Assembly: GCA_049584315.1 (NCBI GenBank)
Contig: JBAUXO010000355.1
Span: forward strand, 87,558-151,557
DNA: 64,000 nt
Origin: Candidatus Sulfotelmatobacter sp.
GTDB lineage: Bacteria; Acidobacteriota; Terriglobia; Terriglobales; Acidobacteriaceae
Direction of reading: 5' to 3'
The notes beneath the pieces are model-generated. The model did no database searches and was not told the origin of the DNA. It saw only the letters and a list, made by a program, of their open reading frames with translations. Of this stretch, positions 13,729 through 30,810 are shown piece by piece; the first letter of the stretch is position 1; each line of letters starts with the position of its first letter. The position numbers and the translations under genes are program-made.

Positions 13729-16700
13729 ATGGTGCCGTGGAAACGTTTTGCGTTCTTGTTGTGTTGCTTGGCGTGTCCGCTTTTGGCATGGTCACAGACG
13801 GGTCTCACCTCATTGCGCGGCACGGTTACCGATTCCTCGGGAGCCGTACTTGCAGGTGCAGAGGTCAGCCTTGAGAACCCATCGACTGGGTTTCACATGG
13901 CCCACACCACGGACCAGAGCGGGGCTTACGAGTTTCCTCAAATCCCGCCCGGCGACTACACAATTACACTGACCAAAGCAGGATTCGGCAAGCAGGTGAA
14001 AGCCGCCGAACTCCTGGTCAGCCAGCCTGCGACGATAAATTTTGCACTCTCCGTTCAGGCCGTGACTCAGACTATCGAAGTTAGTGATGTCGCGCAGACT
14101 CTCAATACGACCGATGCGACCATCGGCAATGCTGTGAGCAATTCCACGATCGAGGCCCTTCCCATCGAAGGGCGTAATGCGCCGGACTTGTTAAGCCTGC
14201 AACCTGGCGTCGTGTACCTGAATTCCCGCGTGACCAATCCTGACGAGGACAGCAGAAGCGGGGCGGTGAATGGCGCTCGTTCCGATCAGGGCAACATCAC
14301 TCTGGACGGAGTTGACGACAACGACCAGAGGCAGGGTTACGCGTTCACTGGGGCGCTGCGGTCGACGCTGGATTCCGTGGAAGAGTTTCGTGTCAGCACA
14401 ACCAACTCCAACGCGGACAGCGGCCGTTCTTCGGGCGCACAGGTCACGCTTGTGACCAAGAGCGGGACCAATACTCTTCACGGCAGCCTCTATGAATACA
14501 ACCGCACTAATTTTGGGCATGCCAATAACTGGTTCAACAAGGCGGCTGAGATGGAGGCAGGATTGCCGAATAAGCCAGGCCAGTTGATTCGCAACACATT
14601 TGGGGGGACGTTCGGGGGCCCCATCAGGAAAGACAAGATTTTCTTTTTTATAAACTACGAGGGCCAGAAGACACAGGAAAACCAGCAACAGAGCCTGACT
14701 GTCCCGAATGCTTCATTCGCGGCTGGTAATGTCAGTTATAACTGCTCGGGCAGTCCGGGATGCCCTGCAAGTGGGGTTCAGACGCTGACACCGGCACAGG
14801 TCGCCACTATGGACCCGATTTGTACGACTACTTGTCCTTGGGGGCCCGGTGACGACCCAAACGCGCTGGCCACGTTTCGCGCCTACCCTGGCCCCAATAG
14901 TCCCGGGGGAGATGGGCTGAATACCGGCGGCTTCACCTGGTCCGCTCCCGCTCCTGCCCGGCTCAATACCTACATCGCTAAGTTCGACTATCAACTGAGT
15001 GATCGCCAACGTCTGTTTGTGCGCGGCAACCTGCAGGGCGACAGGAGTTCTTCGGCCCCGGAGTTTCCCGGCAATCCTCCGAGTGCGTCCGTCGTGGACA
15101 CCGCGAAGGGAATTGCCATCGGTCACACCTGGACCGTCAGCAGCACCCTGATTAATAACTTCCGCTATGGCTATATCCGCCAAGCGTTGAACAACGTGGG
15201 GGCAGGGAACAACTCCTTCTCGGATTTTGCGGGAATCAGCCCGCTAACCGCCGAAAACAATACCACCATCCTAGATGTCCCCGTGCAAAACCTTATCGAT
15301 GACTTTACCTGGGTCAAGGGCAAACACACACTGCAGTTCGGGGCAAACTACCGTTTGATCCACAACAACACGGCCTCGAATAACGTCTCATTCGGCTCGG
15401 CTTCGACGGGAGCGGCCAACATCAGTCAGGCTGCCATTGCGGGAACCGGCCAGAGCTTTGATCCCGAGGCGTTTGGTTTCCCAGCAGTGTCTGGGGCCTT
15501 CTCCACCAGCTACGACAATGCAATTACCTCCATCGCGGGTTTGTTAAGCACCATTAACCTGCATAACAATTATCAGGTGACGAACTCAACCACCGCTACA
15601 CTATTGCCGACCGGTGCGATGATCCCTCGTGATTTCAAAGCCAACGAATTCGAGTGGTACGTGCAGGATTCCTGGCGTGTGAAGCCCAATCTGACGGTTA
15701 CGGCAGGTCTGCGACACACCCTTTTGCAGACTCCGTATGAAGTGCATGGGCAACAGGTTGCGCCCACCGTAGACTTGCACCAATGGTTCGCCAATCGCGC
15801 CACTGCCGCCGCTCAAGGGTTCGGGAATCAACCGGAATTCGCCTTTGCTCCTTCCGGCCAGAGCCGCGGGGGCAATGCGTACTGGAACGCGAACAAACTG
15901 AATTTTGCTCCCCGCTTCGCAGTCGCTTACTCTCCCAATCTCAAAACCTCGATTCGTGCCGGCGTGGGCCTGTACTACGACCATTTTGGCCAAGGGATTG
16001 TTGACGGTTTCAGCCAGTTCGGCTCGTTCGGCTTGACCAGCACGCAGGCGGCTCCGTCGAACATCTTCACGCCGGACGATGCGCCACGTTATACCGGGAG
16101 AAACATCGTGCCGCCGTTGCCCGGCGGCGCTCCACAACAAACGGTCACTTATCCCGCATTCCCTCCCGATAATCCCAACACGACCGGGTTTACCTTCAAC
16201 TCGAATGGAATCGATGGCCAAATCAACACCCCCTACTCCATGGCGGCGGATTTCTCCGTCCAGCGGCAGCTAGGCAAGGGATGGACGTTCGAAGCTGCCT
16301 ACGTGGGCCGGTTTGGCCGCCACCTCCTGCAGCAGCGCGATCTGGCCGCTGGTACTGATCTTGTGGATCCAAAGTCCGGCATGGACTATTACACGGCGGC
16401 AACCTTAATGTCGAAATTTGCGCTGGCGCACGGTGAAGATCCGGGTGCCACAATTTCTCCAATTCCTTACTTTGAAGATCTATTCCCGACTGCGGCGGCA
16501 GGCGGGTTTAGCGCGTCCCAGAATATTTACACGGGCTCCGGCGGCACCAACGCTTGTCCTTCGGGTTTCAGCTGGGCGAACCGGCCGGGACGAGAAGTCG
16601 GCGCGCCCTTCCGCTTGGGATTGATTGCGACTGCTCTTGCCAATGGAGGCGAGTCTCCTGTTTGTGCCGGGTTGCCGCCGGTGCCCTACTGGGACCCTCA

Positions 16701-17580
16701 GTTCTCCTCTCTTTTCGCGTGGTCGTCTCTCGGTACCAGCAGTTACAACGCTGGCCAACTCATGTTGCGCCATCCTATGAGTCGTGGCCTGCAGGTCGAC
16801 TTCAGCTATACCTATTCCAAGTCGCTCGATTTGGGTTCGGATGCCGAACGCACGAATTCGCAGGGGACGACGTCAACGACTACCCCGGTCGGCCAGGGCG
16901 TTAGTACCGTCCTGAGCTACATTGCGAATCCCTGGAACCCGGGGTTGAATCGCGCGCCGTCGGACTTCGATTTGCGCCATGTGATCACTGCGGACTGGGT
17001 TTACGAATTGCCTTTCGGCAAAGGAAAGACTTTCGCCGGTGGCTCAGGAACCTGGCTCGATGCCATTATCGGAGGCTGGCAGATCTCCGGCCTGAATCGC
17101 TGGACCAGTGGGTTTCCTTTTAGCGCCATCGATTCACGAGGTTTCACTCAGAACTTCCTTTTCGAGAGCAACATGGTGCAAACGGGCCCGGTCAGCTCGG
17201 GCGTATTCATGATCGGCGGAGCCCCGTATGCCTTTCCCAATCCAAGTGCCGTGGTGGCCGGGGTACAAATAACACCCGACGTTCCAGCTACCCTGACCCC
17301 GATGCGCTTCGCCTACCCAGGGGAAGCCGGAAGCCGCAACAACTTCCGCGGCCCGGGCTACTTCGGGATTGACATGGGTTTGGCGAAGAGTTGGAAAGTC
17401 CGCGAGCGCATGGACTTGAAGTTTGCTTGGGAGGTTTTCAACTTAACCAACTCGGTGCGTTTCGATACAAATACGAACACCTCACTGGATAATGGTTCCG
17501 ACGACGGCTCGTTCGGTTTGTACCGCGCGACGCTGACGGTTGAACGGGTCCAACAATTCTCGTTGAGGTTCGGTTTTTAA
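13729..17580 (+). CDS. TonB-dependent-receptor-like outer-membrane protein with carboxypeptidase-regulatory-like N-domain (TBDR-2)
   Basis: From ORF 13711..17580. The ATG at 13729 is preceded by AGGAGA. Signal peptide MVPWKRFAFLLCCLACPLLAWSQ. TSLRGTVTDSSGAVLAGAEVSLEN...YTITLTKAGF is CarboxypepD_reg-like. The protein ends FSLRFGF. Confidence 0.85.
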   Translation: MVPWKRFAFLLCCLACPLLAWSQTGLTSLRGTVTDSSGAVLAGAEVSLENPSTGFHMAHTTDQSGAYEFPQIPPGDYTITLTKAGFGKQVKAAELLVSQPATINFALSVQAVTQTIEVSDVAQTLNTTDATIGNAVSNSTIEALPIEGRNAPDLLSLQPGVVYLNSRVTNPDEDSRSGAVNGARSDQGNITLDGVDDNDQRQGYAFTGALRSTLDSVEEFRVSTTNSNADSGRSSGAQVTLVTKSGTNTLHGSLYEYNRTNFGHANNWFNKAAEMEAGLPNKPGQLIRNTFGGTFGGPIRKDKIFFFINYEGQKTQENQQQSLTVPNASFAAGNVSYNCSGSPGCPASGVQTLTPAQVATMDPICTTTCPWGPGDDPNALATFRAYPGPNSPGGDGLNTGGFTWSAPAPARLNTYIAKFDYQLSDRQRLFVRGNLQGDRSSSAPEFPGNPPSASVVDTAKGIAIGHTWTVSSTLINNFRYGYIRQALNNVGAGNNSFSDFAGISPLTAENNTTILDVPVQNLIDDFTWVKGKHTLQFGANYRLIHNNTASNNVSFGSASTGAANISQAAIAGTGQSFDPEAFGFPAVSGAFSTSYDNAITSIAGLLSTINLHNNYQVTNSTTATLLPTGAMIPRDFKANEFEWYVQDSWRVKPNLTVTAGLRHTLLQTPYEVHGQQVAPTVDLHQWFANRATAAAQGFGNQPEFAFAPSGQSRGGNAYWNANKLNFAPRFAVAYSPNLKTSIRAGVGLYYDHFGQGIVDGFSQFGSFGLTSTQAAPSNIFTPDDAPRYTGRNIVPPLPGGAPQQTVTYPAFPPDNPNTTGFTFNSNGIDGQINTPYSMAADFSVQRQLGKGWTFEAAYVGRFGRHLLQQRDLAAGTDLVDPKSGMDYYTAATLMSKFALAHGEDPGATISPIPYFEDLFPTAAAGGFSASQNIYTGSGGTNACPSGFSWANRPGREVGAPFRLGLIATALANGGESPVCAGLPPVPYWDPQFSSLFAWSSLGTSSYNAGQLMLRHPMSRGLQVDFSYTYSKSLDLGSDAERTNSQGTTSTTTPVGQGVSTVLSYIANPWNPGLNRAPSDFDLRHVITADWVYELPFGKGKTFAGGSGTWLDAIIGGWQISGLNRWTSGFPFSAIDSRGFTQNFLFESNMVQTGPVSSGVFMIGGAPYAFPNPSAVVAGVQITPDVPATLTPMRFAYPGEAGSRNNFRGPGYFGIDMGLAKSWKVRERMDLKFAWEVFNLTNSVRFDTNTNTSLDNGSDDGSFGLYRATLTVERVQQFSLRFGF

Positions 17581-17599
17581 GTTGCAGGTGGAGACGAGC

Positions 17600-18472
17600 T
17601 CAGAATGTTGGTGGAGTATTTACCCAGAGAACGGCAGCTTGCTTATTGGTCGGGTTGAACCAGCGGTGGCCACGGTTGCTCTCGAACCAAAAGCTGTCAC
17701 CCTCCTCCAGCAGGTGACATTCGACCTCATCAAGCCAGACTTCCAACGTGCCGTCTAGCATGTACAGGAAGTCCTCGCCCTGGTGCATGTACGCACCGTC
17801 GCTTCCCGTCCCTGGGGGAACTCGAATCAGCATGGATTCGAGCATCTTCGTGCCCGTCGAAAGCAGTTCCATGCGGACACCCGACTTCGTTTCCAGGCTT
17901 TTGCGATTGCGTGGCCGGATCACACGATTAGATTGCGCAGGTAAGTCATAGAGTTCCAATACCGTGGTGCCATATGCTGCTGCCAATCGGTAAATTGTGG
18001 CTACGGAAGGATTGGCACGAGAGAGTTCGATGGCGCTGAGAAAGCCTGCAGAAATGTGGGCCTGCCGAGCCGCCTTGGTTACGGTCAGGCCTCTTTTCTT
18101 TCGGAGCCGACGGAGTTTGTCACCCAGATCTGGAGTGGGCTTGACAGGATGCATTGACTTTCTAACACGTAGATCTGTTCCTAGGGCTTCCTTTATCCCG
18201 GGGACATTTAGTTTCTTTACGTCGCGCAGGTACTTGATGCGTTTTAGAACGTCGAGCAACTCGGGAGTATATAGGCGATAACTACCTGCGCTTCGCGCCG
18301 GAGTCACAAGACCCACGCCTTCCCAGAGACGCAATGTCGAGGAACTGATTCCCAGAATTCGCGCGGTCTGCCCCACAGTCAGAAACCGCACACTTTCCGA
18401 ATTAGCAATGCGCCTTGATTTGGGTGATTTTGGGCGTCGCAAGCAATTAATAGTAACCCCGAATATTACCAA
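17600..18472 (-). CDS. Three-module transcription regulator: MerR-type HTH + XRE-type HTH + C-terminal cupin (PuuR-like core)
   Basis: 290 aa. VGQTARILGISSSTLRLWEGVGLVTPARSAGSYRLYTPELLDVLKRIKYLRD is MerR-like. LGDKLRRLRKKRGLTVTKAARQAHISAGFLSAIELSRANPSVATIYRLAAAYGTTVLELY is XRE-like. HQGEDFLYMLDGTLEVWLDE...GDSFWFESNRGHRWFN is a cupin. Confidence 0.8.
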   Translation of the reverse strand: MVIFGVTINCLRRPKSPKSRRIANSESVRFLTVGQTARILGISSSTLRLWEGVGLVTPARSAGSYRLYTPELLDVLKRIKYLRDVKKLNVPGIKEALGTDLRVRKSMHPVKPTPDLGDKLRRLRKKRGLTVTKAARQAHISAGFLSAIELSRANPSVATIYRLAAAYGTTVLELYDLPAQSNRVIRPRNRKSLETKSGVRMELLSTGTKMLESMLIRVPPGTGSDGAYMHQGEDFLYMLDGTLEVWLDEVECHLLEEGDSFWFESNRGHRWFNPTNKQAAVLWVNTPPTF

Positions 18473-18519
18473 ATGTGAAATTTGCTGATTTGGTTGTAAT
18501 GTAACGGGAAAGCACGACT

Positions 18520-19255
18520 TAGGAGAATCTGCCGTGATGCCTCTGATTCCCGCAACTTCCTAAGGTGAGGCATCTTGAGGAGAACACCTCTGCACCTTTG
18601 CGTGCGCTGGCGACTCAACTGCAGACATCTTGGAACGATGCGTGGACCTTGGATACTACTGCGGCTTGAAGAAGTTGGGAAAGCCGGCAACAAGGAGAAG
18701 AACCCTTGTCGGGCACTATTCCCATCTCGCCACTAGGCCCATCTTGCCGTACCATGCCAGATGTCTGAATCATGTGCGGGCGCTCTCGCTGGTGGAAGCG
18801 GCGCAAATTACAGCGCGCAGCATTCCGGAATGGCGCAATAAGTACTTCCACCTGCGATGCGACGAGGAAGGAAGATCGTCAAGGTGGCGATGGCGCCGAG
18901 ACTGGCTATCGCTCTCTATTGGATGTGGCGCAAGGGATGGAATTACGAGTAGTCAAGAAAGTTCGGTTCGCACGCGGGCAAGCTCGGAACAGGCGATGGT
19001 ATGCAGTAGAACATCGAGAAATTGATTGATCAGCCCGCTCCTCTTCATCGAGGAGTTCGAAGTAGTAATCATGATCGAAGTTGTGACCGAAGAGATGCAT
19101 GGCTCGGACCGAGCTTCTGACCTGAACTGATTACGAGCGAGCCTTGGCTGGTATGGCACTTTTTTTTTGCGAGAGCGAAATGGCGCTCATCTGTGACTGG
19201 ATGGAGCAGTGTGGGGAAAAAGTACTTGACGACGCCGACATTGTAAGAGATGCCT
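18520..19255 (+). mobile_element. IS110-family element relic (left copy): 5'-truncated, frameshifted and nonsense-mutated transposase C-terminal part plus about 245 nt of 3' non-coding tail
   Basis: Pieces read across frames: LVEAAQITARSIPEWRNKYFHL / MRRGRKIVKVAMAPRLAIALYWMWRKGWNYE-TAG-SRKFGSHAGKLGTGDGMQ-TAG (ends 19009). No DEDD N-terminal domain is present. The tail 19010-19255 is homologous in inverted orientation to 30040-30283. The 5' boundary is approximate. Confidence 0.75.
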
Positions 19256-19324
19256 TTTTACAACAGTCTGCCTTCAAACTCCCCCTCGACGCAGGAGTAC
19301 CATTGTGTAGCTAAGGGGTCTGAT

Positions 19325-20047
19325 ATGGGCTTTCGTTTGGCAGCAACCCTTCTCGTTCTCACTGCCTCGTTCACCTTTGCCCAAAACAGCAAGCAGAGAC
19401 TCTGCGACGCTCCGTCGGCCACCACGGTCAAACATGATGGCGGAGTGATTGTAGAAAAGGTAATGCTCAGGGGTAAGTGGGGAAGCAACGGCGGATCCGC
19501 TTACCTTCCTGACAAAGACATTGCCGACGGTGCGATCGTGTTCTCGCATTCCGCGATTAACACGAACAACGGTTCGGCAGTTGATCTGCTACCGTTGGCC
19601 TTGACGCTAGCTCACGCTGGCGCAGCGGTTATCGTGCCCGCACGATCTCTGGCATGGCCACCGACCGATCAGTCAAGCAACCGCGAAGGGGCAGTGGTCA
19701 TCTGCGCCGAGCATTGGCTGATCGACCACACCAAAGTATTTAACAACGGTGAGCCCACGGTGAATGACAAGAACATTGTTGTGCGAGAGGGATATGCGTA
19801 CGTCGGCCCGCGAGTGTGCGACCCAACCGTTCTCGACCAATGCGACTTCATGAGCCCGTTTGCCTCGGAGGATTGCGCCCTCAAGCGCTACTGCCGTCAA
19901 AGCGTGTGGGTTCCCCTTGGCGAAACCGAAGGCGGCGATAATACACGCAGCATCATCTCCGACCAGGGATCAAAAACCGCAAGCTGGCTTCAGAAGAATT
20001 TGGGATTAGCTCCAATCAGGGCTGTGGCAGCTGCCGAGTCCTTTTGA
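19325..20047 (+). CDS. Secreted hypothetical protein
   Basis: From ORF 19250..20047. The internal ATG at 19325 has an AAGGGG RBS and gives signal peptide MGFRLAATLLVLTASFTFAQ. I recognise no family. Confidence 0.6.
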   Translation: MGFRLAATLLVLTASFTFAQNSKQRLCDAPSATTVKHDGGVIVEKVMLRGKWGSNGGSAYLPDKDIADGAIVFSHSAINTNNGSAVDLLPLALTLAHAGAAVIVPARSLAWPPTDQSSNREGAVVICAEHWLIDHTKVFNNGEPTVNDKNIVVREGYAYVGPRVCDPTVLDQCDFMSPFASEDCALKRYCRQSVWVPLGETEGGDNTRSIISDQGSKTASWLQKNLGLAPIRAVAAAESF

Positions 20048-20113
20048 GGGTCGTGACTGTTGAAATCGCGTCAATAGATGCACTTTTTTGACCCGGACGG
20101 GTGTCGGGCAATT

Positions 20114-20185
20114 CTCGGTGAGCGTTATCGCCTGTGTCGGTTGAAAAACTCCTAATTTTGTCAAAATAGGAGTTTTTCAATAGAC
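20114..20185 (+). repeat. Palindromic repeat element, copy 1 (perfect 14-bp stem TTGAAAAACTCCTA / TAGGAGTTTTTCAA, 12-nt loop)
   Basis: CTCGGTGAGCGTTATCGCCTGTGTCGGTTGAAAAACTCC...GGAGTTTTTCAA. Arms lie at 20141-20154 and 20167-20180. It is related to 29231-29390. Confidence 0.7.
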
Positions 20186-20407
20186 ACTCCCGATTACGCT
20201 CAAAACTCCACCTGACGGGCGAACAGACGCCGCAAGCTTGTGACATCGGCCTGTTAACAATCTCTGCGCATGATAGCCTTGGTTTGCTGAGATGGCCGAC
20301 TGGCCGTATCGGCAAGGCGAAGCGGACTCGCGGAGTGGTCTTGCGGTTCAAGAAGTACACCCACTCTGCGGACGAGAGTGTACTGGGTAGTTAAGAAAAG
20401 GGAACAC

Positions 20408-21541
20408 ATGAAAAAGTCTCTTCTCCTGATAATCGCTGTTTTTGCCGTACAGCAACTGGCGGCTGCCGCCAATCCCAATCCTCCACTGAAGGTGGGCATT
20501 GTCGGCCTTGAGCACGGGCACATCGAGTTTTCCCTGCGGGGCGGCGCGCTCGCACCCGCCGGCGGACTGCTGAACCGCCCCGATATTCAGATTGTCGGTG
20601 TGGTCGAGTCAGACCAGTCGCTTTTTGACTCCTACGCGCAGCGCCACCATATGTCCGCCGGCCTTCTCTTCCGCAGCATTCAGGAGATGGTCTCGCAAGT
20701 TCATCCTCAGGCGGTTCTGGTTTTCACCGCCCCCAGCGACCACAGGCGGGTCGTCGAGGAATGCGCTGCCCTGGGCGTCCACGTGATGGTGGAGAAGCCT
20801 CTAGCCATCAGCTACAAAGATGCGCTCGCCATCCAAGACGCCGCCCAGCGTGGCAAGATTCATGTCCTCGTCAACCTGGAAACCTCCTGGTACCCAAGCA
20901 ATACCGAAGCCTTCGATCTGCTGCAGCGGGGCGCTCTCGGTCCTATCGTGAAGACGGTCTTCCGAGACGGTCACCGCGGCCCCAAGCTGCTTGGCGTGTT
21001 CGGACCCGAGTTCCTCAACTTTCTAGCCGATCCCAAACAGAACGGTGGCGGAGCTCTGTTCGATTTCGGCTGCTATGGAGCGAATCTCATGACTTGGCTC
21101 ATGGATGGCGAATCTCCGCTATCCGTAACAGCCGTAACGAAGCAACTGCAGCCCGATCTTTATCCCAACGTAGACGACGAAGCGGAGATCATACTGAACT
21201 ACAAGAACGCTGTCGCGATTGTTCAGGCCTCCTGGAATTGGCCTTTCGCAGTAAAGCAAATGGATGTCTATGGGCGCACCGGCTATGCCAAAACCATCGA
21301 CTCCGGGCGCATGGAAGTCCGAAAGGCGAATGCGTCCGAAGGCCAGATAATAAAGGCGCAGTCTCTTTCCGCTCCCTACGACGATCCGTTGCACTACCTG
21401 GAGGCGGTCATGAACGGTGAAGTCCAGGAAGGAAATAGCCTGTCCTCGCTGCAGAACAACGTAACCGCGTCCGAGATTCTCGACGCGGCACGGCAGTCCG
21501 CTCAGACTCGCAAAACTGTTGAGCTACCTCTTCCTAAGTAG
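20408..21541 (+). CDS. Secreted Gfo/Idh/MocA-family NAD(P)-dependent oxidoreductase
   Basis: From ORF 20378..21541. The ATG at 20408 gives signal peptide MKKSLLLIIAVFAVQQLAAAA. LKVGIVGLEHGH is the Rossmann start, and GVHVMVEKPLA is the EKP motif of the family. Confidence 0.8.
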   Translation: MKKSLLLIIAVFAVQQLAAAANPNPPLKVGIVGLEHGHIEFSLRGGALAPAGGLLNRPDIQIVGVVESDQSLFDSYAQRHHMSAGLLFRSIQEMVSQVHPQAVLVFTAPSDHRRVVEECAALGVHVMVEKPLAISYKDALAIQDAAQRGKIHVLVNLETSWYPSNTEAFDLLQRGALGPIVKTVFRDGHRGPKLLGVFGPEFLNFLADPKQNGGGALFDFGCYGANLMTWLMDGESPLSVTAVTKQLQPDLYPNVDDEAEIILNYKNAVAIVQASWNWPFAVKQMDVYGRTGYAKTIDSGRMEVRKANASEGQIIKAQSLSAPYDDPLHYLEAVMNGEVQEGNSLSSLQNNVTASEILDAARQSAQTRKTVELPLPK

Positions 21542-22583
21542 GGCCGATCACCCTATGCGGACGCTTGGAATTCCATATTCTCGTCGACCGAATCTGCGCG
21601 CGGGGCGTGCCAGACGCGTTGTCGCCGGAGCGGTTAGCGCCACACCAAGTGAAGGCCGGGCCCACGACCACTGCGAGGCTGCTGGGCCAGTTCGTGAGAT
21701 GTGCTGACGGAGGGATATGTCACCGAGGACAGAAGGCCCTGGATATCCCCAGAATATTTTCGCGAGTTGCAGGAAGGGTCGGGAGGGAAACTGGCTTAAA
21801 CACTCATTTGACCGGGTTGGCTATCTCTGGTTTCAACAGTTACAGGCTCCGGATCTTTCACTGGGTGCGAGACTCTATCAAGTGTTTCGCAACACCATCC
21901 CAAAGGGTCCACGAATGGAGCCAGTTTCCCTCGACCCGGCGAAGAATCGTACCCACATTGAGGTAATAGTTCTTGTCCCCCTGCTGGACGGGCACACGTA
22001 ATCGCGGCGGGTGGCAGCGTCAAAGGCCTATGACACAACGTATATGAGCCGTTCGGTGGGCATTCTAGCCTAGAACGAAACCTCGTGGTGGAGCAGTCCG
22101 TTGGGAGGCTCGGCAGTCGGCCCTTGAGACCAGTCGATGATGAAACTGCGCGCCTGGGGGGTCAAATCCCGGCTCTGAAGAACTTGTTCCTAAGCCGCTC
22201 CACAGTTGAATATTCGCAAGGACCTTTCGGTCAGTGACCTGAATGGAGATTTGAGCTCAGCACTTTGGATTGTTATTTGACCGTTTCACCCTTTGCGAAC
22301 AGCCGCGCGGGGTTCAACCAGCAGGAAACATGACGGGAAGAGTCAACATCCTCTTCATGTCTCACCTCTCGTGTCCAACATTATTGAACCTCCGAGGCTA
22401 ACTGTCGAAATAACGCTAATTGAAGAGAAAGATTTTACAAACTGGTGACAAACCCTTGACACTTCCGAGTCGTGACTCGACCTACGATCACTGGCCAAGC
22501 AGGTCAGAGAAGGTTCTGTGTCCGTTACTCCTACCGATGGTTCGACCCTCCTCTGCCGCTGATTTCGCTAAGGAGAGACTCCT

Positions 22584-23645
22584 ATGCAGGTTTGCAGGAC
22601 GGCAGTCGTCGCTTGCTTCGGCCTGGTTCTTTTCATGGTTTCGTCCCCGGCCAAAGCACAATATCGGATCACAAACCTAGTTTCGAATCAAGTCCACCAA
22701 GCCCGGACCATCGATCCACTTCTGGCCAACGCCTGGGGATTAGCTCGGGGCGCGACATCGCCTTGGTGGATCAGTGATAACGACACCGGCTGGTCGACCC
22801 TCTATGAGGCAAGTGGAACGCAAGTGCCACTCCGGGTTTTGATTCCGACCGCCGGAAACGGGCCAGCCTCGCCGACCGGCCTAAACGGCCCAGGCACGCC
22901 GACTGGAGTCGTTTTCAACGGATCGTCAACCGATTTCCAGATTCAGGGCATGGCATCAGCCTTCATTTTCGCGACGCTGGATGGGACTATCAGCGCCTGG
23001 GCGCCAGGAGTAAACAAGAACCAAGCGATCATCGCGGTGGACAACTCGGCGAACAAAGCGATGTACACGGGCTTGGCCATCACCAGCAAGCCCTCGGGAA
23101 ATTTCCTCTATGGGGCGGATAACACGAACAATCACATAGATATGTTCGACGGCAACTTCAACCTCGTGAAGTCGTTTGGTGATCCGGCGATTCCATCGAA
23201 CTTCTCCGTGTTCGGCATCCAGGACATTAATGGCCTGGTTTACGTCGCGTATGCTATACCGAACATCGGAGCCGGCGGTTTCATCGACCTCTTCACGGAG
23301 GACGGTACCTTCGTGAAGACACTGATCCAAGGACCGCCACTCAATCAGGCCTGGGGCATCGCCGCGGCCCCCCCCAATTTTGGACCGCTGAGCAACACTC
23401 TGCTGGTTTCAAACAACTCGGTTAACGGCACCATCAACGGGTTTGACCCGATTACCGGGAACTTCGTGGGTACGATCAAGGACCAGAACGGACAGCGGAT
23501 CATCCTCAACAACTTATGGGGAATCGCCTTCGGAGGCGGGAACAAGACCAATGGGGCAACAAACGAGCTGTTCGTCACCGTGGGTCAGGGAATTGGCACC
23601 GCCGAATTGGCCGGCACCTTTTCATCCATCGTCTACAAGCCATAA
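22584..23645 (+). CDS. Secreted TIGR03118-like (beta-propeller-type) hypothetical protein
   Basis: 353 aa with a GGAGAG RBS and signal peptide ...LFMVSSPAKAQ. The N-terminus YRITNLVSNQVHQARTIDPLLANAWGLARGATSPWWISDNDTGWSTLY matches my memory of the TIGR03118 family. The family call is unverified. Confidence 0.7.
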   Translation: MQVCRTAVVACFGLVLFMVSSPAKAQYRITNLVSNQVHQARTIDPLLANAWGLARGATSPWWISDNDTGWSTLYEASGTQVPLRVLIPTAGNGPASPTGLNGPGTPTGVVFNGSSTDFQIQGMASAFIFATLDGTISAWAPGVNKNQAIIAVDNSANKAMYTGLAITSKPSGNFLYGADNTNNHIDMFDGNFNLVKSFGDPAIPSNFSVFGIQDINGLVYVAYAIPNIGAGGFIDLFTEDGTFVKTLIQGPPLNQAWGIAAAPPNFGPLSNTLLVSNNSVNGTINGFDPITGNFVGTIKDQNGQRIILNNLWGIAFGGGNKTNGATNELFVTVGQGIGTAELAGTFSSIVYKP

Positions 23646-23709: not shown

Positions 23710-24220
23710 GTGTGCCGAGCGGGATCGCAAGCTGGAGGGTGAAAGTCCCTTTGACGAGTTGATGGAAGGGAAGTCATAGCGAAGCGCAAGGGTGAAACAA
23801 CACTCGCCGCGAGACGGGGCCTGAAAGAAGCGCATAGCAAAGACGCGTGCCGATGAACCAGAATCGGATGCGCGGCCTCGGTGGCGGGCGAGCGGGAGCA
23901 TGACTGCGAAGCCCACATCCATCAAGTCCACTGGCGGTAAATCCGGCGGTTGGGCGTCGAAGGCGGTCGAACCTACCTCGGGAGATCTGCGACATGTCAC
24001 ACAACGTGACTGAGGAGGAAGCGATTCACCCTGACCGTGTCGCAGAAGTCCGAGGGCAAAGTAGGTCATGCAGTCGGTGGGAAGATTGAGGCACTCCAAA
24101 GGCCGAAAGGCGGAAAAACAGATGGGCACTCCGGGAACGATGACTGAAGGCCCGAACGGTAGCTGTAGGGGGAATAAAGCGAAGGGTAAGTAAGTGGCGC
24201 GACTCAGGACCGAACAGTCA
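23710..24220 (+). mobile_element. Probable 5' fragment (domains I-III/IV start) of a group II intron; no reverse-transcriptase ORF or domain V/VI
   Basis: It starts with GTGTG (the GUGYG consensus) 2 nt after the terminator T-stretch. It is purine-rich and non-coding, with strings typical of bacterial group II D1-D4 RNAs (GGAGGGTGAAAGTCCC, AGCGAAGCGCAAGG, GAAGGGTAAGTAAG). It ends abruptly at the stop codon of the convergent gene at 24222. Confidence 0.45.
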
Positions 24221-29161: not shown

Positions 29162-29200
29162 CCCACCCTTCGCCATTTTCCGAAGGGTGGGCTTTCTGTT
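29162..29200 (+). terminator. Rho-independent terminator
   Basis: CCCACCCTTCG-ccattttc-CGAAGGGTGGG is an 11-bp stem, followed by CTTTCTGTT. Confidence 0.7.
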
Positions 29201-29230
29201 GACGTGATATCCCTATTAACTCATTGACGG

Positions 29231-29390
29231 TCGGTGAGTGTGATCGCCTGTGTTGAAAAACTCACTCGCCGGAAATGGTCGAAAAAACCTTGCAATAGGA
29301 AACCCTACGAACGACGATCTCCATTTTGGCAAACATTTTCTGTTTCCCAAATTCCGGCTATTTGGACAAAACAGGAGTTTTTCAACATGC
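29231..29390 (+). repeat. Palindromic repeat element, copy 2 (arms separated by about 110 nt)
   Basis: TCGGTGAGTGTGATCGCCTGTGTTGAAAAACTC (arm 29253-29263) ... GGAGTTTTTCAA (29374-29385). It is the same element as 20114-20185, in the same orientation. Confidence 0.65.
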
Positions 29391-29886: not shown

Positions 29887-30039
29887 GGCAGACTTCCTGC
29901 GCGGATAAGAACCCCTGAACGGGCTTTAGTTGCTTACCCCGACAACAAAACGATAGTTACTTCCCCGGGTTTTGGAAGGGTTTTGGGGACGGGCTTGCCG
30001 GGCCGGCGTAATTGACTTTTCCCTCTGTTGTTGCCAAGT

Positions 30040-30810
30040 CGCGTCTCTTACAATGCCGGCGTTGTCAAGTAATTTTCTCCCACACTGCTCCATCCACTGA
30101 GAGATGAGCGCCATTTCGCTCTCGCAGAAATGAGTGCCATACCAACCAAGGCTCGCTCGTAATCAGGTCAGGTCAGAATCTCGGTCCGAGCCATGCATCT
30201 CTTCGGTCACAGCTTCGATCATGATTACTACTTCGAACTCCTCTCTAAAGAGGAGCGGGATGCCCAATCAATTACTCGATGTTCTACTTTACACCATCGC
30301 GATTTCCCGGCTGTCCCTGCGAACCGACCATCGCCACCTTGGCGATCTTCCGTCTTGGTCGCATCGCCAGGCGGAAGTGCTTATTGCGCCATTCTGGGAT
30401 GTAACTTGGGCCGCTTCCACCAGCAAAAAGCGCAACATCGAACTCCCTTGCTTCGTGATATGGCCCAGTTCGTCGCCGATTTCCGTTTGAGTCCTCCAAG
30501 GGCACGAACCCCAAACACGCCGCGATCTGCTTCGCACTGAAATCGCTCCGTCCTTGCGATGATACGAAGGCTAAGGCCGTCAGTGCACCCACTCCAGGAT
30601 GCGTCCGCAAGCGTCGTGCCTCCGGACATTTCTCTACTTCCTGCTCGATCACTTGCGTCAGATCGGCAATCCTCGGGTTCAGCCGATCCAGCAGCTGCAG
30701 CAGATCTTCCCGTCGGCGGCTCGCCCAGGGGGATTCAAGCATTCGTTCCGCCCGACCGATTGCTCTACGATTCTTGTGCCTTGGTCCAAAGTGCGACAGA
30801 GCTAGCAATA
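30040..30810 (-). mobile_element. IS110-family element relic (right copy, inverted relative to the left copy): 5'-truncated, frameshifted and internally deleted transposase plus conserved 3' tail
   Basis: ORF 30284..30808 reads ...LNPRIADLTQVIEQEVEKCPEARRLRTHPGVGALTALAFV...CLGFVPLEDSNG (Transposase_20-like). It shifts frame to HITKQGSSMLRFLLVEAAQV, then PEWRNKHFRLAMRPRRKIAKVAM--GSQGQPGNRDGVK. The DEDD domain is absent. The tail 30040-30283 matches the reverse complement of 19010-19255. Confidence 0.75.

What the first reader, a model, noticed from the sequence alone, without database searches (positions are those of the whole stretch)
19010..19255. 3' non-coding tails of the two IS110 relics are far better conserved than the transposase ORFs: possible IS1111-type bridge/seek RNA module or other selected non-coding function
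By manual alignment, a 110-nt core (19050-19159 against the reverse complement of 30134-30243) differs at only about four positions. The whole tail, from the transposase stop to ...ATTGTAAGAGA (19010-19252 / 30043-30283), is clearly more similar than the upstream coding DNA. That coding DNA has accumulated frameshifts, a nonsense codon, a roughly 75-nt deletion and many substitutions. IS110-family recombinases are known from 2024 work on bridge/seek RNAs to be guided by a structured RNA encoded in a non-coding end, which lies downstream of the gene in the IS1111 subgroup. The tail contains palindromes such as GCTCGG-A-CCGAGC. A dead transposase with a preserved RNA-coding end would be interesting. 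It could be trans-mobilisation by an intact copy elsewhere, RNA exaptation, or gene conversion.
Basis: partly seen in the sequence, partly recalled or inferred. Interest (0 to 1): 0.65.

Follow-up and report, generated by a model that had tools for sequence, protein, structure and literature searches.

The report
Guide-RNA ends of two dead IS1111-type elements
The two conserved "tails" are the right-hand non-coding ends of two broken copies of a common soil-Acidobacteria insertion sequence; in working copies this end looks like it encodes the guide RNA that picks the insertion site, and the broken copies simply inherited its slow rate of change, which makes the finding ordinary.

Summary
Tail A (19010-19250, +) and tail B (30283-30044, -) are 90.6% identical. 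The 110-nt core has exactly 4 mismatches. The adjoining transposase remnants are about 85% identical and carry large indels.

Both tails are the 3' non-coding right end of 5'-truncated relics of an unnamed IS1111-group element. The element is abundant in Terriglobia: more than 118 genome loci, 57 with an intact 350-aa transposase.

Family-wide, the tail looks like a seekRNA/bridge-RNA gene:
- Helices covary.
- One 5' segment covaries in register with the left target flank.
- A second 5' segment is complementary to the right flank (Fisher p = 1e-8, replicated in an independent set).
- A TTGACA box forms a promoter with the left end when the two ends are joined.

The target is a REP-like palindrome.

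The claim that dead copies specially preserve the tail is not supported. Against the nearest intact copies, tail and coding remnant are equally diverged (about 92-93%). In active copies the tail core is already the slowest-evolving part (0.89 against 0.81). Both relics share a substitution that breaks an otherwise invariant helix pair. The antisense ORF is not conserved. This is a new member of a known kind, of low interest.

The parts
18783..19009 (+). Copy A: C-terminal remnant of the IS110/IS1111 transposase gene (profile positions 917 to about 1141). It is frameshifted, has an in-frame TAG, and its original stop is at 19007-19009.
   Evidence: nhmmer with the full-IS profile; six-frame translation
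19010..19250 (+). Copy A: the 3' non-coding right end (the 'tail'), a putative seekRNA/bridge-RNA gene followed by the recombination end.
19016..19028 (+). Copy A: left-target-guide-like segment GAG-AAAT followed by TGATTG, which resembles the left-end tip TGATTCC.
   Evidence: In the family, tail column 14 against left-flank position -4 is the top mutual-information pair of the whole scan. Positions -3 and -1 also covary in the independent set.
19030..19036 (+). Copy A: right-target-guide-like segment (TCAGCCC, the 'CAG' type).
   Evidence: CAG-type tails sit next to nGCCTG right flanks at 22:3, and T-type tails next to nGCGAT at 52:15 (Fisher p = 1.2e-8). The association is replicated. Copy A's own right flank is TGCCTT.
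19037..19056 (+). Copy A: hairpin P1 (GCTCCTC-loop-GAGGAGT).
   Evidence: Compensatory pair CG 37 / UA 33 / UG 8 with none broken; CG 27 / TA 17 in the second data set.
19057..19157 (+). It contains helix GTAATC (19065-19070) / GATTAC (19129-19134), helix ATGATC/GATGCAT, helix GGnTCGGA/..CTGACC and hairpin GCC..GGC.
   Evidence: Covariation UA 61 / UG 11 / CG 3 and GC 27 / AT 13 / GT 6. This is the most conserved stretch of the whole IS in the protein-selected copies (0.894).
19103..19103 (+). G-to-C substitution shared by copies A and B (30190 in B).
   Evidence: (pair 130/150: GC 78, other 2)
19172..19188 (+). Copy A: hairpin AGAGCG-AAATG-GCGCTC. It is near-invariant, so there is no covariation evidence for or against it.
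19226..19250 (+). Copy A: right-end recombination and promoter module, made of a -35-like TTGACG (19226-19231), the subterminal inverted repeat GCCGACATTGT (19234-19244) and the tip AAGAGA.
   Evidence: Subterminal repeat ACAATGTCGGC / GCCGACATTGT in intact copies. Joined ends give TTGACA-17/18 nt-GATGAT in 48 of 53 copies.
19251..19266 (+). Copy A: right arm of the REP-like target (TGCCTTTTTACAACAG).
   Evidence: Matches the right-flank consensus nGC(CTG/GAT)nTTnCGnCAAC.
30284..30734 (-). Copy B: transposase remnant (profile 608-1029 and 1099 to about 1141). It carries a PF02371 match, a 69-nt internal deletion and frameshifts, and the SG motif is mutated to NG.
30044..30283 (-). Copy B: the 3' non-coding right end (tail), with the same anatomy as copy A. 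Guide-like segments are at 30277-30265 (GAG-TAAT-TGATTG) and 30263-30257 (GCATCCC, T-type).
   Evidence: Its right flank CGCGAC is of the GAT type, matching its T-type guide.
30027..30043 (-). Copy B: right arm of the REP-like target (CGCGACTTGGCAACAAC).
29195..29262 (-). An unoccupied REP-like palindrome of the family that this IS targets (…CACTCACCGACCGTCAATGAGTTAATAGGGATATCACGTCAACAG).
   Evidence: compared with the empty sites

Best explanation
Each tail is the right-hand non-coding end of a 5'-truncated, dead copy of an unnamed IS1111-group (IS110-family) insertion sequence of about 1.37 kb that is common in Terriglobia.

In intact copies the gene for a 350-aa DEDD transposase is followed by about 241-245 nt containing, in order:
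1. A segment with the same sense as the left target flank (GAG-NAAT), followed by TGATTG, which resembles the left-end tip.
2. A segment complementary to the right target flank (CAG or ATC, then CCCG).
3. A covarying hairpin and a roughly 100-nt multi-helix scaffold.
4. A variable region.
5. A -35 box, an 11-bp subterminal inverted repeat and the end of the element.

Inferred mechanism, by analogy with ISEc11/ISPa11 seekRNAs and the IS621 bridge RNA. The tail is transcribed with or downstream of the transposase gene and binds the transposase. Its 5' guide segments pair with the bottom strand left of the insertion point and the top strand right of it. The insertion point lies in a REP-like palindrome (…TGAGTG-NAAT^nGCGAT or nGCCTG…). 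The CAG and ATC guide variants choose which side, and so which orientation, of the asymmetric palindrome is used. After excision, the joined ends create a TTGACA-17-GATGAT promoter.

What is shown here: the element's anatomy, its target, the helix covariation, the guide-flank covariation and the conservation profile. What is inferred: that an RNA exists, that it binds the protein and that it guides insertion.

The two window copies are inert relics. Their tails look better conserved than their coding DNA because the tail scaffold is the slowest-evolving part of the active element, and because both relics come from one sub-lineage. There is no sign that the relic tails themselves are under selection.
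For: Family membership:
- Copy B matches PF02371.
- A conceptual C-terminus finds thousands of IS110-family proteins in Acidobacteriota.
- An intact relative scores 224.8 bits against NF033542, 'IS110 family RNA-guided transposase'. It also matches the IS621 and ISCro4 transposases weakly.

Family anatomy:
- 123 tails were found in more than 118 Terriglobia loci. 57 follow an intact 348-354-aa ORF.
- Left end, right end and the 11-bp subterminal repeats are defined.
- The REP-like target was seen both occupied and empty.

RNA structure: covarying pairs occur in three helices.

Guide behaviour:
- The strongest of all tail-column by flank-position associations is the in-register pair of column 14 and left-flank position -4.
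- Right-guide type against right-flank type gives Fisher p = 1.2e-8.
- Both associations are replicated in 46 protein-selected metagenomic copies.
- The polarity matches IS621, where the 5' guide pairs with the bottom strand and the 3' guide with the top strand (PMC11208160). It also matches seekRNA, which carries matches to both target strands (PMC11187229).
- Joined ends form a promoter-like site in 48 of 53 copies.

Inherited conservation rather than selection on the relics:
- Protein-selected intact copies give CDS 0.813 (codon positions 0.875 / 0.914 / 0.649), tail 0.851 and tail core 0.894.
- Relic against nearest intact copy: A is 93.4% in the coding remnant and 92.5% in the tail; B is 91-92.5% and 91.6-95%.
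- Intact-intact pairs have a tail/coding divergence ratio of about 0.47.
- Differences in the relic coding remnants show a near-neutral codon pattern.
- Copies A and B share two private substitutions.
Against: - No transcript, RNA end or protein binding can be shown here.
- No Rfam family hits the tails, even at E <= 10.
- Single-sequence folding is no more stable than shuffled controls, with z about +0.2.
- RNAalifold on the raw 80-sequence alignment gave only a weak consensus with one compensatory pair. Most predicted pairs never vary.
- Guide-flank complementarity is imperfect. The 'GAG' of the left guide needs a 2-nt skip to match TGAGTG. The CAG-type right guide needs a 1-nt register shift.
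- No shared core dinucleotide could be identified at the two junctions.
- Copies are phylogenetically related, so the Fisher p-values overstate independence. A protein determinant co-inherited with the tail variant could produce the same association.
- Substitutions in the relic tails largely avoid columns that are invariant in intact tails (A: 2 of 85 columns hit; B: 0 of 85). This leaves some room for residual constraint.
Confidence: 0.75

Rival explanations
1. The relic tails are themselves maintained by selection. They might be a trans-acting source of guide RNA for intact copies elsewhere in the genome, an exapted small RNA, or a mobilisable module in the way ssr9 of ISPpu9 is.
For: - The 110-nt core has only 4 mismatches, against about 15% divergence in the coding remnant.
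- Substitutions in the relic tails mostly avoid family-invariant columns.
- 29 5'-truncated relics and 13 solo tails exist in other genomes.
- There is a precedent: solo ssr9 copies that form their own circles (PMC12288879).
Against: - Relative to the nearest intact copies, the tails are as diverged as the coding remnants.
- The tail/coding divergence ratio is higher in relics than between active copies.
- Both window tails carry a change that breaks a helix pair invariant in 78 other tails.
- No promoter-like site lies upstream of tail A on its strand.
- The truncation points of relics and solos are ragged, not a defined module boundary.
- The abundance of tail-bearing relics comes from ascertainment, because the search used a tail motif. 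Among the non-ascertained fragments, five keep the left end and only one keeps the tail.
Confidence: 0.08
2. Gene conversion or recombination between the two copies, or with intact copies, recently homogenised the tails but not the coding remnants.
For: - Copies A and B share two substitutions found in none of the 78 other tails (19103 and 19169).
- Identity peaks in a contiguous 110-nt block.
Against: - Shared private changes are equally expected from common descent within one sub-lineage.
- The same identity profile (core above whole tail above coding) is seen across unrelated intact copies, so no special event is needed.
- The guide region immediately 5' of the core differs between A and B in the way their different flanks predict. 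This argues against wholesale conversion.
Confidence: 0.1
3. The conserved stretch encodes a protein on the opposite strand (MHLFGH(N/S)FDHDYYFELL…).
For: Open frames of 64 aa (copy A) and 115 aa (copy B) exist on the opposite strand.
Against: - Among 57 intact IS copies the frame is open for anywhere from 10 to 115 codons. Fifteen copies have 18 codons or fewer, and the peptide changes frame between lineages.
- Neither ORF matches a Pfam family.
- Loop-length and 1-nt indels in the region are tolerated in intact copies.
Confidence: 0.01

Closest known systems
IS1111-group elements with a 3' seekRNA: ISEc11, ISKpn4 and especially the REP-targeting ISPa11 (Siddiquee et al. 2024, PMC11187229)
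   Same: - A transposase of about 350 aa with the GL-P----SG motif.
- A short left end and a long downstream non-coding region.
- Subterminal inverted repeats (11 bp here).
- Site-specific insertion into a palindromic repeat.
- Short non-coding-region segments matching both strands of the target around the insertion point.
- A promoter formed by joining the ends.
   Different: - The host is Terriglobia, and the target is a different REP-like palindrome.
- No RNA or activity has been demonstrated here.
- The guide-like segments lie within about 30 nt after the stop codon, upstream of the first hairpin.
- In my orientation the bottom-strand-pairing segment comes first, whereas the paper reports the top-strand match 5' of the bottom-strand match in IS1111 types. 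I could not check their strand convention.
- Sequence relatedness to those elements was not tested.
IS621 bridge RNA (IS110 group; Durrant et al. 2024, PMC11208160; Hiraizumi et al. 2024)
   Same: - An RNA-guided DEDD recombinase.
[quoted passage not shown]
- Guide-target covariation across natural copies.
   Different: - In IS621 the RNA lies in the left end, upstream of the gene.
- IS621 has two clearly defined internal loops (target and donor) and a CT core. No donor-binding loop or core dinucleotide could be identified here.
- Protein similarity is only weak (E = 5e-9 over the C-terminal half).
ISPpu9 / Ssr9 of Pseudomonas putida (PMC12288879)
   Same: - An IS110-family element inserted in REP sequences.
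- A small-RNA gene downstream of the transposase gene.
- Copies of the RNA module without a transposase gene.
   Different: - Ssr9 is dispensable for transposition and moves as a discrete module with its own end boxes.
- Here the transposase-less tails have ragged 5' ends consistent with deletion, and the tail carries target-matching segments.

Membership tests
IS110 family, IS1111 group (insertion sequence) | DEDD (RuvC-like) N-terminal domain plus PF02371 C-terminal domain; transposase of about 330-350 aa | tested here: met
   Window copy B matches PF02371. The relics lack the N-terminal domain. Intact relatives are 348-354 aa, carry PF01548 and PF02371, and hit NF033542 at 224.8 bits against a cutoff of 140.
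IS110 family, IS1111 group (insertion sequence) | GL-P----S(T)G motif in the C-terminal domain | tested here: met
   Intact relative: GLVPLEKSSG (reference sequence). Copy B reads GFVPLEDSNG, so the motif is mutated. Copy A lacks this region.
IS110 family, IS1111 group (insertion sequence) | Subterminal inverted repeats of 7-17 bp | tested here: met
   ACAATGTCGGC near the left end and GCCGACATTGT near the right end, 11 bp. The right-end copy is present in both window relics (19234-19244 and 30060-30050).
IS110 family, IS1111 group (insertion sequence) | The longer non-coding region lies downstream of the transposase gene (long right end, short left end) | tested here: met
   Left end to ATG is about 88 nt. 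Stop codon to right end is 241-245 nt.
IS110 family, IS1111 group (insertion sequence) | Sequence-specific insertion at one position of a defined target | tested here: met
   All full copies sit at …TGAGTG-NAAT^nGC(GAT/CTG)… of a REP-like palindrome. Empty sites of the same kind are present in the same contigs.
seekRNA / bridge RNA (RNA guide of IS110/IS1111 recombinases) | [quoted passage not shown] | tested here: met
   The left-guide-like NAAT covaries with left-flank positions -4, -3 and -1. The right-guide-like CAG or ATC is complementary to right-flank CTG or GAT (Fisher p = 1.2e-8; replicated). Complementarity is imperfect and the copies are not independent.
seekRNA / bridge RNA (RNA guide of IS110/IS1111 recombinases) | Conserved secondary structure supported by compensatory changes | tested here: inconclusive
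   Three helices each have one or two covarying pairs, but most pairs are invariant. RNAalifold on the raw alignment is weak. Folding z-scores are about 0.
seekRNA / bridge RNA (RNA guide of IS110/IS1111 recombinases) | A donor-binding element that recognises the IS ends or donor flanks | tested here: inconclusive
   TGATTG in the tail resembles the left-end tip TGATTCC, but it varies (TGAAT, TGGGT, TGAGT) without matching changes in the left end. No second loop was identified.
seekRNA / bridge RNA (RNA guide of IS110/IS1111 recombinases) | A stable RNA is made from the non-coding region, co-purifies with the transposase and is required for transposition | not testable with these tools
   No expression or biochemical data are available.
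seekRNA / bridge RNA (RNA guide of IS110/IS1111 recombinases) | A match to a curated or published covariance model | tested here: not met
   Rfam 15 gives no match at the gathering threshold or at E <= 10. The models of Durrant et al. were not available, so this says little.
Autonomous small-RNA module of ISPpu9 type (ssr9-like) | A discrete module with its own repeated end boxes, found alone with defined boundaries | tested here: not met
   Transposase-less tails start at different positions. The window relics keep 227 nt and about 450 nt of pseudogene.

The most novel reading that the evidence does not exclude
Truncated copies that keep the right end, including the two in this window, could remain functional guide-RNA genes. 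They might supply alternative target specificities in trans to intact transposases in the same genome. Copy A carries an AAAT/CAG-type guide and copy B a TAAT/ATC-type guide. They might also be mobilised as transposase-less passengers, which would make them a reservoir of guides that outlives its recombinase.
Probability: 0.06. Interest if true: 0.6.

Novelty: new member of a known kind. Interest (0 to 1): 0.25.

Why it matters
For this window it matters little. The two tails are inert leftovers, and their conservation is explained by the biology of the parent element.

The by-product is modestly useful. It describes an unnamed and abundant IS1111-group element of soil Terriglobia with a defined REP-like target. 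A natural three-base guide variant (CAG or ATC) correlates with which side of the palindrome is used. That is a ready-made natural example of guide reprogramming that could be tested experimentally. The element also explains many fragmented 'transposase' calls in Acidobacteriota metagenome-assembled genomes.

Tried and rejected
- Rfam scans of the window at the gathering threshold, and of the tail at E <= 10, found nothing on the tails.
- RNAalifold on the raw 80-tail alignment gave a weak structure and missed P1 because of gap columns. I refolded a cleaned alignment instead.
- Single-sequence folding of both tails gave no stability signal.
- The antisense ORF was rejected.
- I tested whether the tail is preferentially retained in relics. 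The apparent excess of 5'-truncated copies comes from searching with a tail motif.
- BLAST of the DNA upstream of both truncation points found no other repeat that could have caused the truncation.
- The promoter/terminator scan around copy A found nothing on the + strand.
- I tried to find an orthologous locus in a diverged strain. The only long hit is a 99.985% identical contig, GCA_049584675.1, so no rate comparison was possible.
- I could not identify a shared core dinucleotide at the two junctions or a donor-binding loop.
- ISfinder naming, and sequence comparison with ISPa11 or ISEc11, were not possible.
Full report
**1. Checking the observation**

The two regions were read and aligned. 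The transposase frames end at TAG 19007-19009 (copy A, + strand) and 30286-30284 (copy B, - strand). From there to the last shared bases (…ATTGTAAGAGA, 19250 and 30044) the two tails are 222/245 identical, with one gap column.

The coding DNA just upstream is alignable only for about 150 nt. It is 87/99 and 38/48 identical, with gaps of 10, 1, 69 and 3 nt. Further upstream the pairwise alignment is meaningless, at 47%. For substitutions alone, though, whole tail against coding remnant is not significant (23/245 against 22/147 mismatches, Fisher p = 0.10). Only the core stands out.

**2. What the two copies are**

Copy B's longest frame matches Pfam Transposase_20. A conceptual C-terminal protein assembled from both copies finds thousands of IS110-family proteins, the best at 87% identity, from Acidobacteria, Sulfotelmatobacter and Terriglobales.

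Two contigs carrying close relatives (L001, L002) showed the whole element:
- a left end TGATTCCATGACAATGTCGGC…;
- an ORF starting MIIIGCDYHP…;
- the same tail;
- a right end …GCCGACATTGTCAGAGA.

An nhmmer profile of 42 full elements was run against the window. Copy A corresponds to profile positions 917-1386 only (18783-19250). Copy B corresponds to 608-1029 plus 1099-1386. Nothing else in the 64 kb is derived from this element. Both copies are thus 5'-truncated relics that keep the right end. The DNA upstream of 18783 is simply not IS DNA.

**3. The family**

A 28-nt motif from the tail core was scanned against one genome per species. The 123 tails divide as follows:

| Class | Count |
|---|---|
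| Follow an intact 348-354-aa ORF | 57 |
| Follow a full-length but interrupted gene | 18 |
| 5'-truncated at graded positions | 29 |
| No transposase similarity upstream | 13 |
| At a contig edge | 6 |

An intact protein scores 224.8 bits (cutoff 140) against NCBIfam NF033542, 'IS110 family RNA-guided transposase'. It also matches the IS621 and ISCro4 transposases weakly in the PDB.

The element has every diagnostic feature of the IS1111 group as listed by Siddiquee et al. (PMC11187229) and Durrant et al. (PMC11208160):
- a protein of about 350 aa with the GL-P----SG motif;
- 11-bp subterminal inverted repeats;
- a short left end of about 88 nt;
- a long right end of 241-245 nt.

**4. The target**

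The left flanks of about 70 full copies and the right flanks of about 100 copies are conserved. Unoccupied versions occur in the same contigs. They form a REP-like palindrome, …CACTCA-(stem-loop)-TGAGTG-[T/A/C][A/T]A[T/A]^[C/G/T]GC(GAT or CTG)nTTnCGnCAAC.

The palindrome is asymmetric. Read on one strand the right arm is nGCGAT, and read on the other it is nGCCTG. The same elements were read on both strands. The window holds one empty site at about 29195-29262. Both relics still abut a right arm of this kind (19251-19266 TGCCTTTTTACAACAG; 30043-30027 CGCGACTTGGCAACAAC).

**5. Does the tail encode a guide RNA?**

*Structure.*
- On 80 unique tails (alignment A2), RNAalifold on the raw alignment was weak.
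- On a cleaned alignment it predicts a hairpin P1, a multi-helix scaffold and further hairpins.
- Pair counting on A2 gives 94.3% of cells paired, against 33-44% for slid controls. Fifty-two cells have changes on both sides, against 14.5 ± 9.7 in shuffles.
- The informative pairs are few. In P1 they are CG 37 / UA 33 / UG 8 with none broken. In the GTAATC/GATTAC helix they are UA 61 / UG 11 / CG 3.
- In an independent, protein-selected set of 46 metagenomic copies, P1 again covaries (CG 27 / TA 17). A pair in the GGGTCGGA…CTGACC helix shows GC 27 / AT 13 / GT 6 with none broken.
- Single-sequence folding energies are unremarkable, with z about +0.2.
- No Rfam model matches.

*Guides.* I computed mutual information between every variable tail column and every variable flank position, following the logic of Durrant et al.
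- The single strongest pair is tail column 14 with left-flank position -4. Column 14 is the N of GAG-NAAT, about 10 nt after the stop codon. This is the in-register, same-sense position.
- The four-base tables show the matches directly. Examples are AAAT with AAAT, CTAT with CTAT or xTAT, TAAA with TAAA, and TAAC with TAAC.
- The next strongest signal links columns 26-28 to right-flank positions +4 to +6. Tails reading CAG lie next to nGCCTG at 22:3. Tails reading (A/G)T lie next to nGCGAT at 52:15 (Fisher p = 1.2e-8).
- The sense is complementary: CAG pairs with CTG, and ATC with GAT.
- Each palindrome offers both kinds of side, so genome composition cannot explain the association.
- The association is replicated in the metagenomic set, at 5:0 against 4:35.
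[quoted passage not shown] It also fits the 'matches to both strands' of seekRNAs.

*Promoter.* Abutting the right and left ends gives TTGACA-17/18 nt-GATGAT in 48 of 53 intact copies. This is the junction promoter typical of the family.

*Caveats.*
- Complementarity is imperfect.
- No core dinucleotide or donor-binding loop was identified.
- The copies are phylogenetically related.
- No RNA has been observed.

I put the guide-RNA reading for the family at about 0.8.

**6. Is the tail specially preserved in the dead copies?**

No, for six reasons.
1. Against the nearest intact elements, copy A is 93.4% identical in the coding remnant and 92.5% in the tail. Copy B is 91.3-92.5% and 91.6-95.0%.
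2. Between intact members of the same subfamily, coding divergence is 4-9% and tail divergence 1.3-4.2%, a ratio of about 0.47, and 64% of coding changes are synonymous. In the relics the ratio is about 0.6-1.1. Coding changes are spread evenly over codon positions and 33-54% are synonymous. Both parts therefore look relaxed.
3. In the protein-selected set, which is free of the bias of my tail-motif search, mean pairwise identity per column varies by region:

   | Region | Mean pairwise identity |
   |---|---|
   | Coding sequence, all positions | 0.813 |
   | Codon positions 1 / 2 / 3 | 0.875 / 0.914 / 0.649 |
   | Whole tail | 0.851 |
   | Tail core | 0.894 |
   | Guide region | 0.830 |

The A-against-B profile (core 96%, tail 91%, coding 85%) is the family profile.
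4. Among IS fragments in the fetched loci that were not selected by the tail motif, five keep the left end and lack the tail. Only one keeps the tail and lacks the left end. The many tail-bearing relics are an ascertainment effect.
5. Copies A and B share two substitutions found in no other tail (19103, 19169).
6. No promoter-like site precedes tail A on its strand.

One residual point runs the other way. Substitutions in the relic tails mostly avoid columns that are invariant in intact tails. I read this as divergence accumulated while the lineage was active, but it leaves a small probability of residual constraint.

**7. Other rivals**

The antisense ORF is open for 10 to 115 codons among the 57 intact copies and changes frame between lineages. 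It has no family match, so it is rejected.

Gene conversion is not needed. It is disfavoured because the guide region differs between A and B in step with their flanks: A is CAG-type next to TGCCTT, and B is T-type next to CGCGAC.

An ISPpu9/ssr9-like autonomous RNA module does not fit, because the transposase-less tails have ragged 5' ends.

**8. Verdict**

The finding is a correct observation with a largely correct family assignment. The part that would have made it interesting, selective preservation of the RNA end in dead copies, is not supported.

It is a new, unnamed member of a known kind: an IS1111-group element with a seekRNA-type 3' end that targets a REP-like palindrome. Interest in the window finding is low. 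The family-level guide and target-side correlation is a neat but expected illustration of natural guide reprogramming.

Noticed in passing
window 23803-23971 (+): Strong Rfam match to group II intron domains D1-D4 (RF02001, 99.6 bits), lying in a 577-nt gap between ORFs. No D5/D6 match and no reverse-transcriptase ORF lie nearby, so it looks like an intron fragment or an ORF-less remnant.
   Followed up: partly
window about 29195-29262 (-), and many sites in L007-L117: A family of asymmetric REP-like palindromes in Terriglobia genomes: GTTGnAAn(CAGGCG or ATCGCG)-ATTT-CACTCA-loop-TGAGTG-NAAT-nGC(GAT or CTG)nTTnCGnCAAC. It is the specific target of this IS, which uses either side depending on a 3-nt variant in the tail.
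   Followed up: partly
L001 4080-4321: A second, 5'-truncated tail copy lies directly after the right end of a near-complete element, giving a tandem tail-tail arrangement. L085 has a 17-nt duplication of the right-end tip (GCCGACATTGTTAGAGA, twice).
   Followed up: no
window 19063-19076 and 30230-30217; tail consensus positions 58-71: The tail contains GTAAT^CATGAT, which resembles the true target centre GTAAT^CGCGAT. Several transposase-less tails (L016, L022, L055, L071, L106) begin within about 20 nt of this point. This may be a pseudo-target or a preferred breakpoint. I did not test it.
   Followed up: no
A2 columns 196-216 (the loop after the GCC..GGC hairpin; window about 19158-19168): Lineage-specific expansions of an A/C-rich repeat (AAAGCAACAGCAAAAG…) of up to about 20 nt in some intact copies. 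Copy A has a run of nine T here instead.
   Followed up: no
window 30480-30500 (-): In copy B the catalytic-finger motif GL-P----SG reads GFVPLEDSNG, with the serine next to the glycine replaced by asparagine. This is a further inactivating change besides the frameshifts and the deletion.
   Followed up: partly
window 16325-23000: This stretch is 99.985% identical to contig JBAUYG010000326.1 of assembly GCA_049584675.1 (58.7 kb). The window therefore comes from the same or a near-identical uncultured population, and the relic is fixed in both assemblies.
   Followed up: partly
L002 5655-6368, and internal fragments in L005, L007, L014, L017, L028, L043, L048 and L119: Additional IS110-family fragments match only profile positions of about 640-1060. 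They probably belong to other, more distant IS110/IS1111 elements co-resident in these genomes.
   Followed up: no
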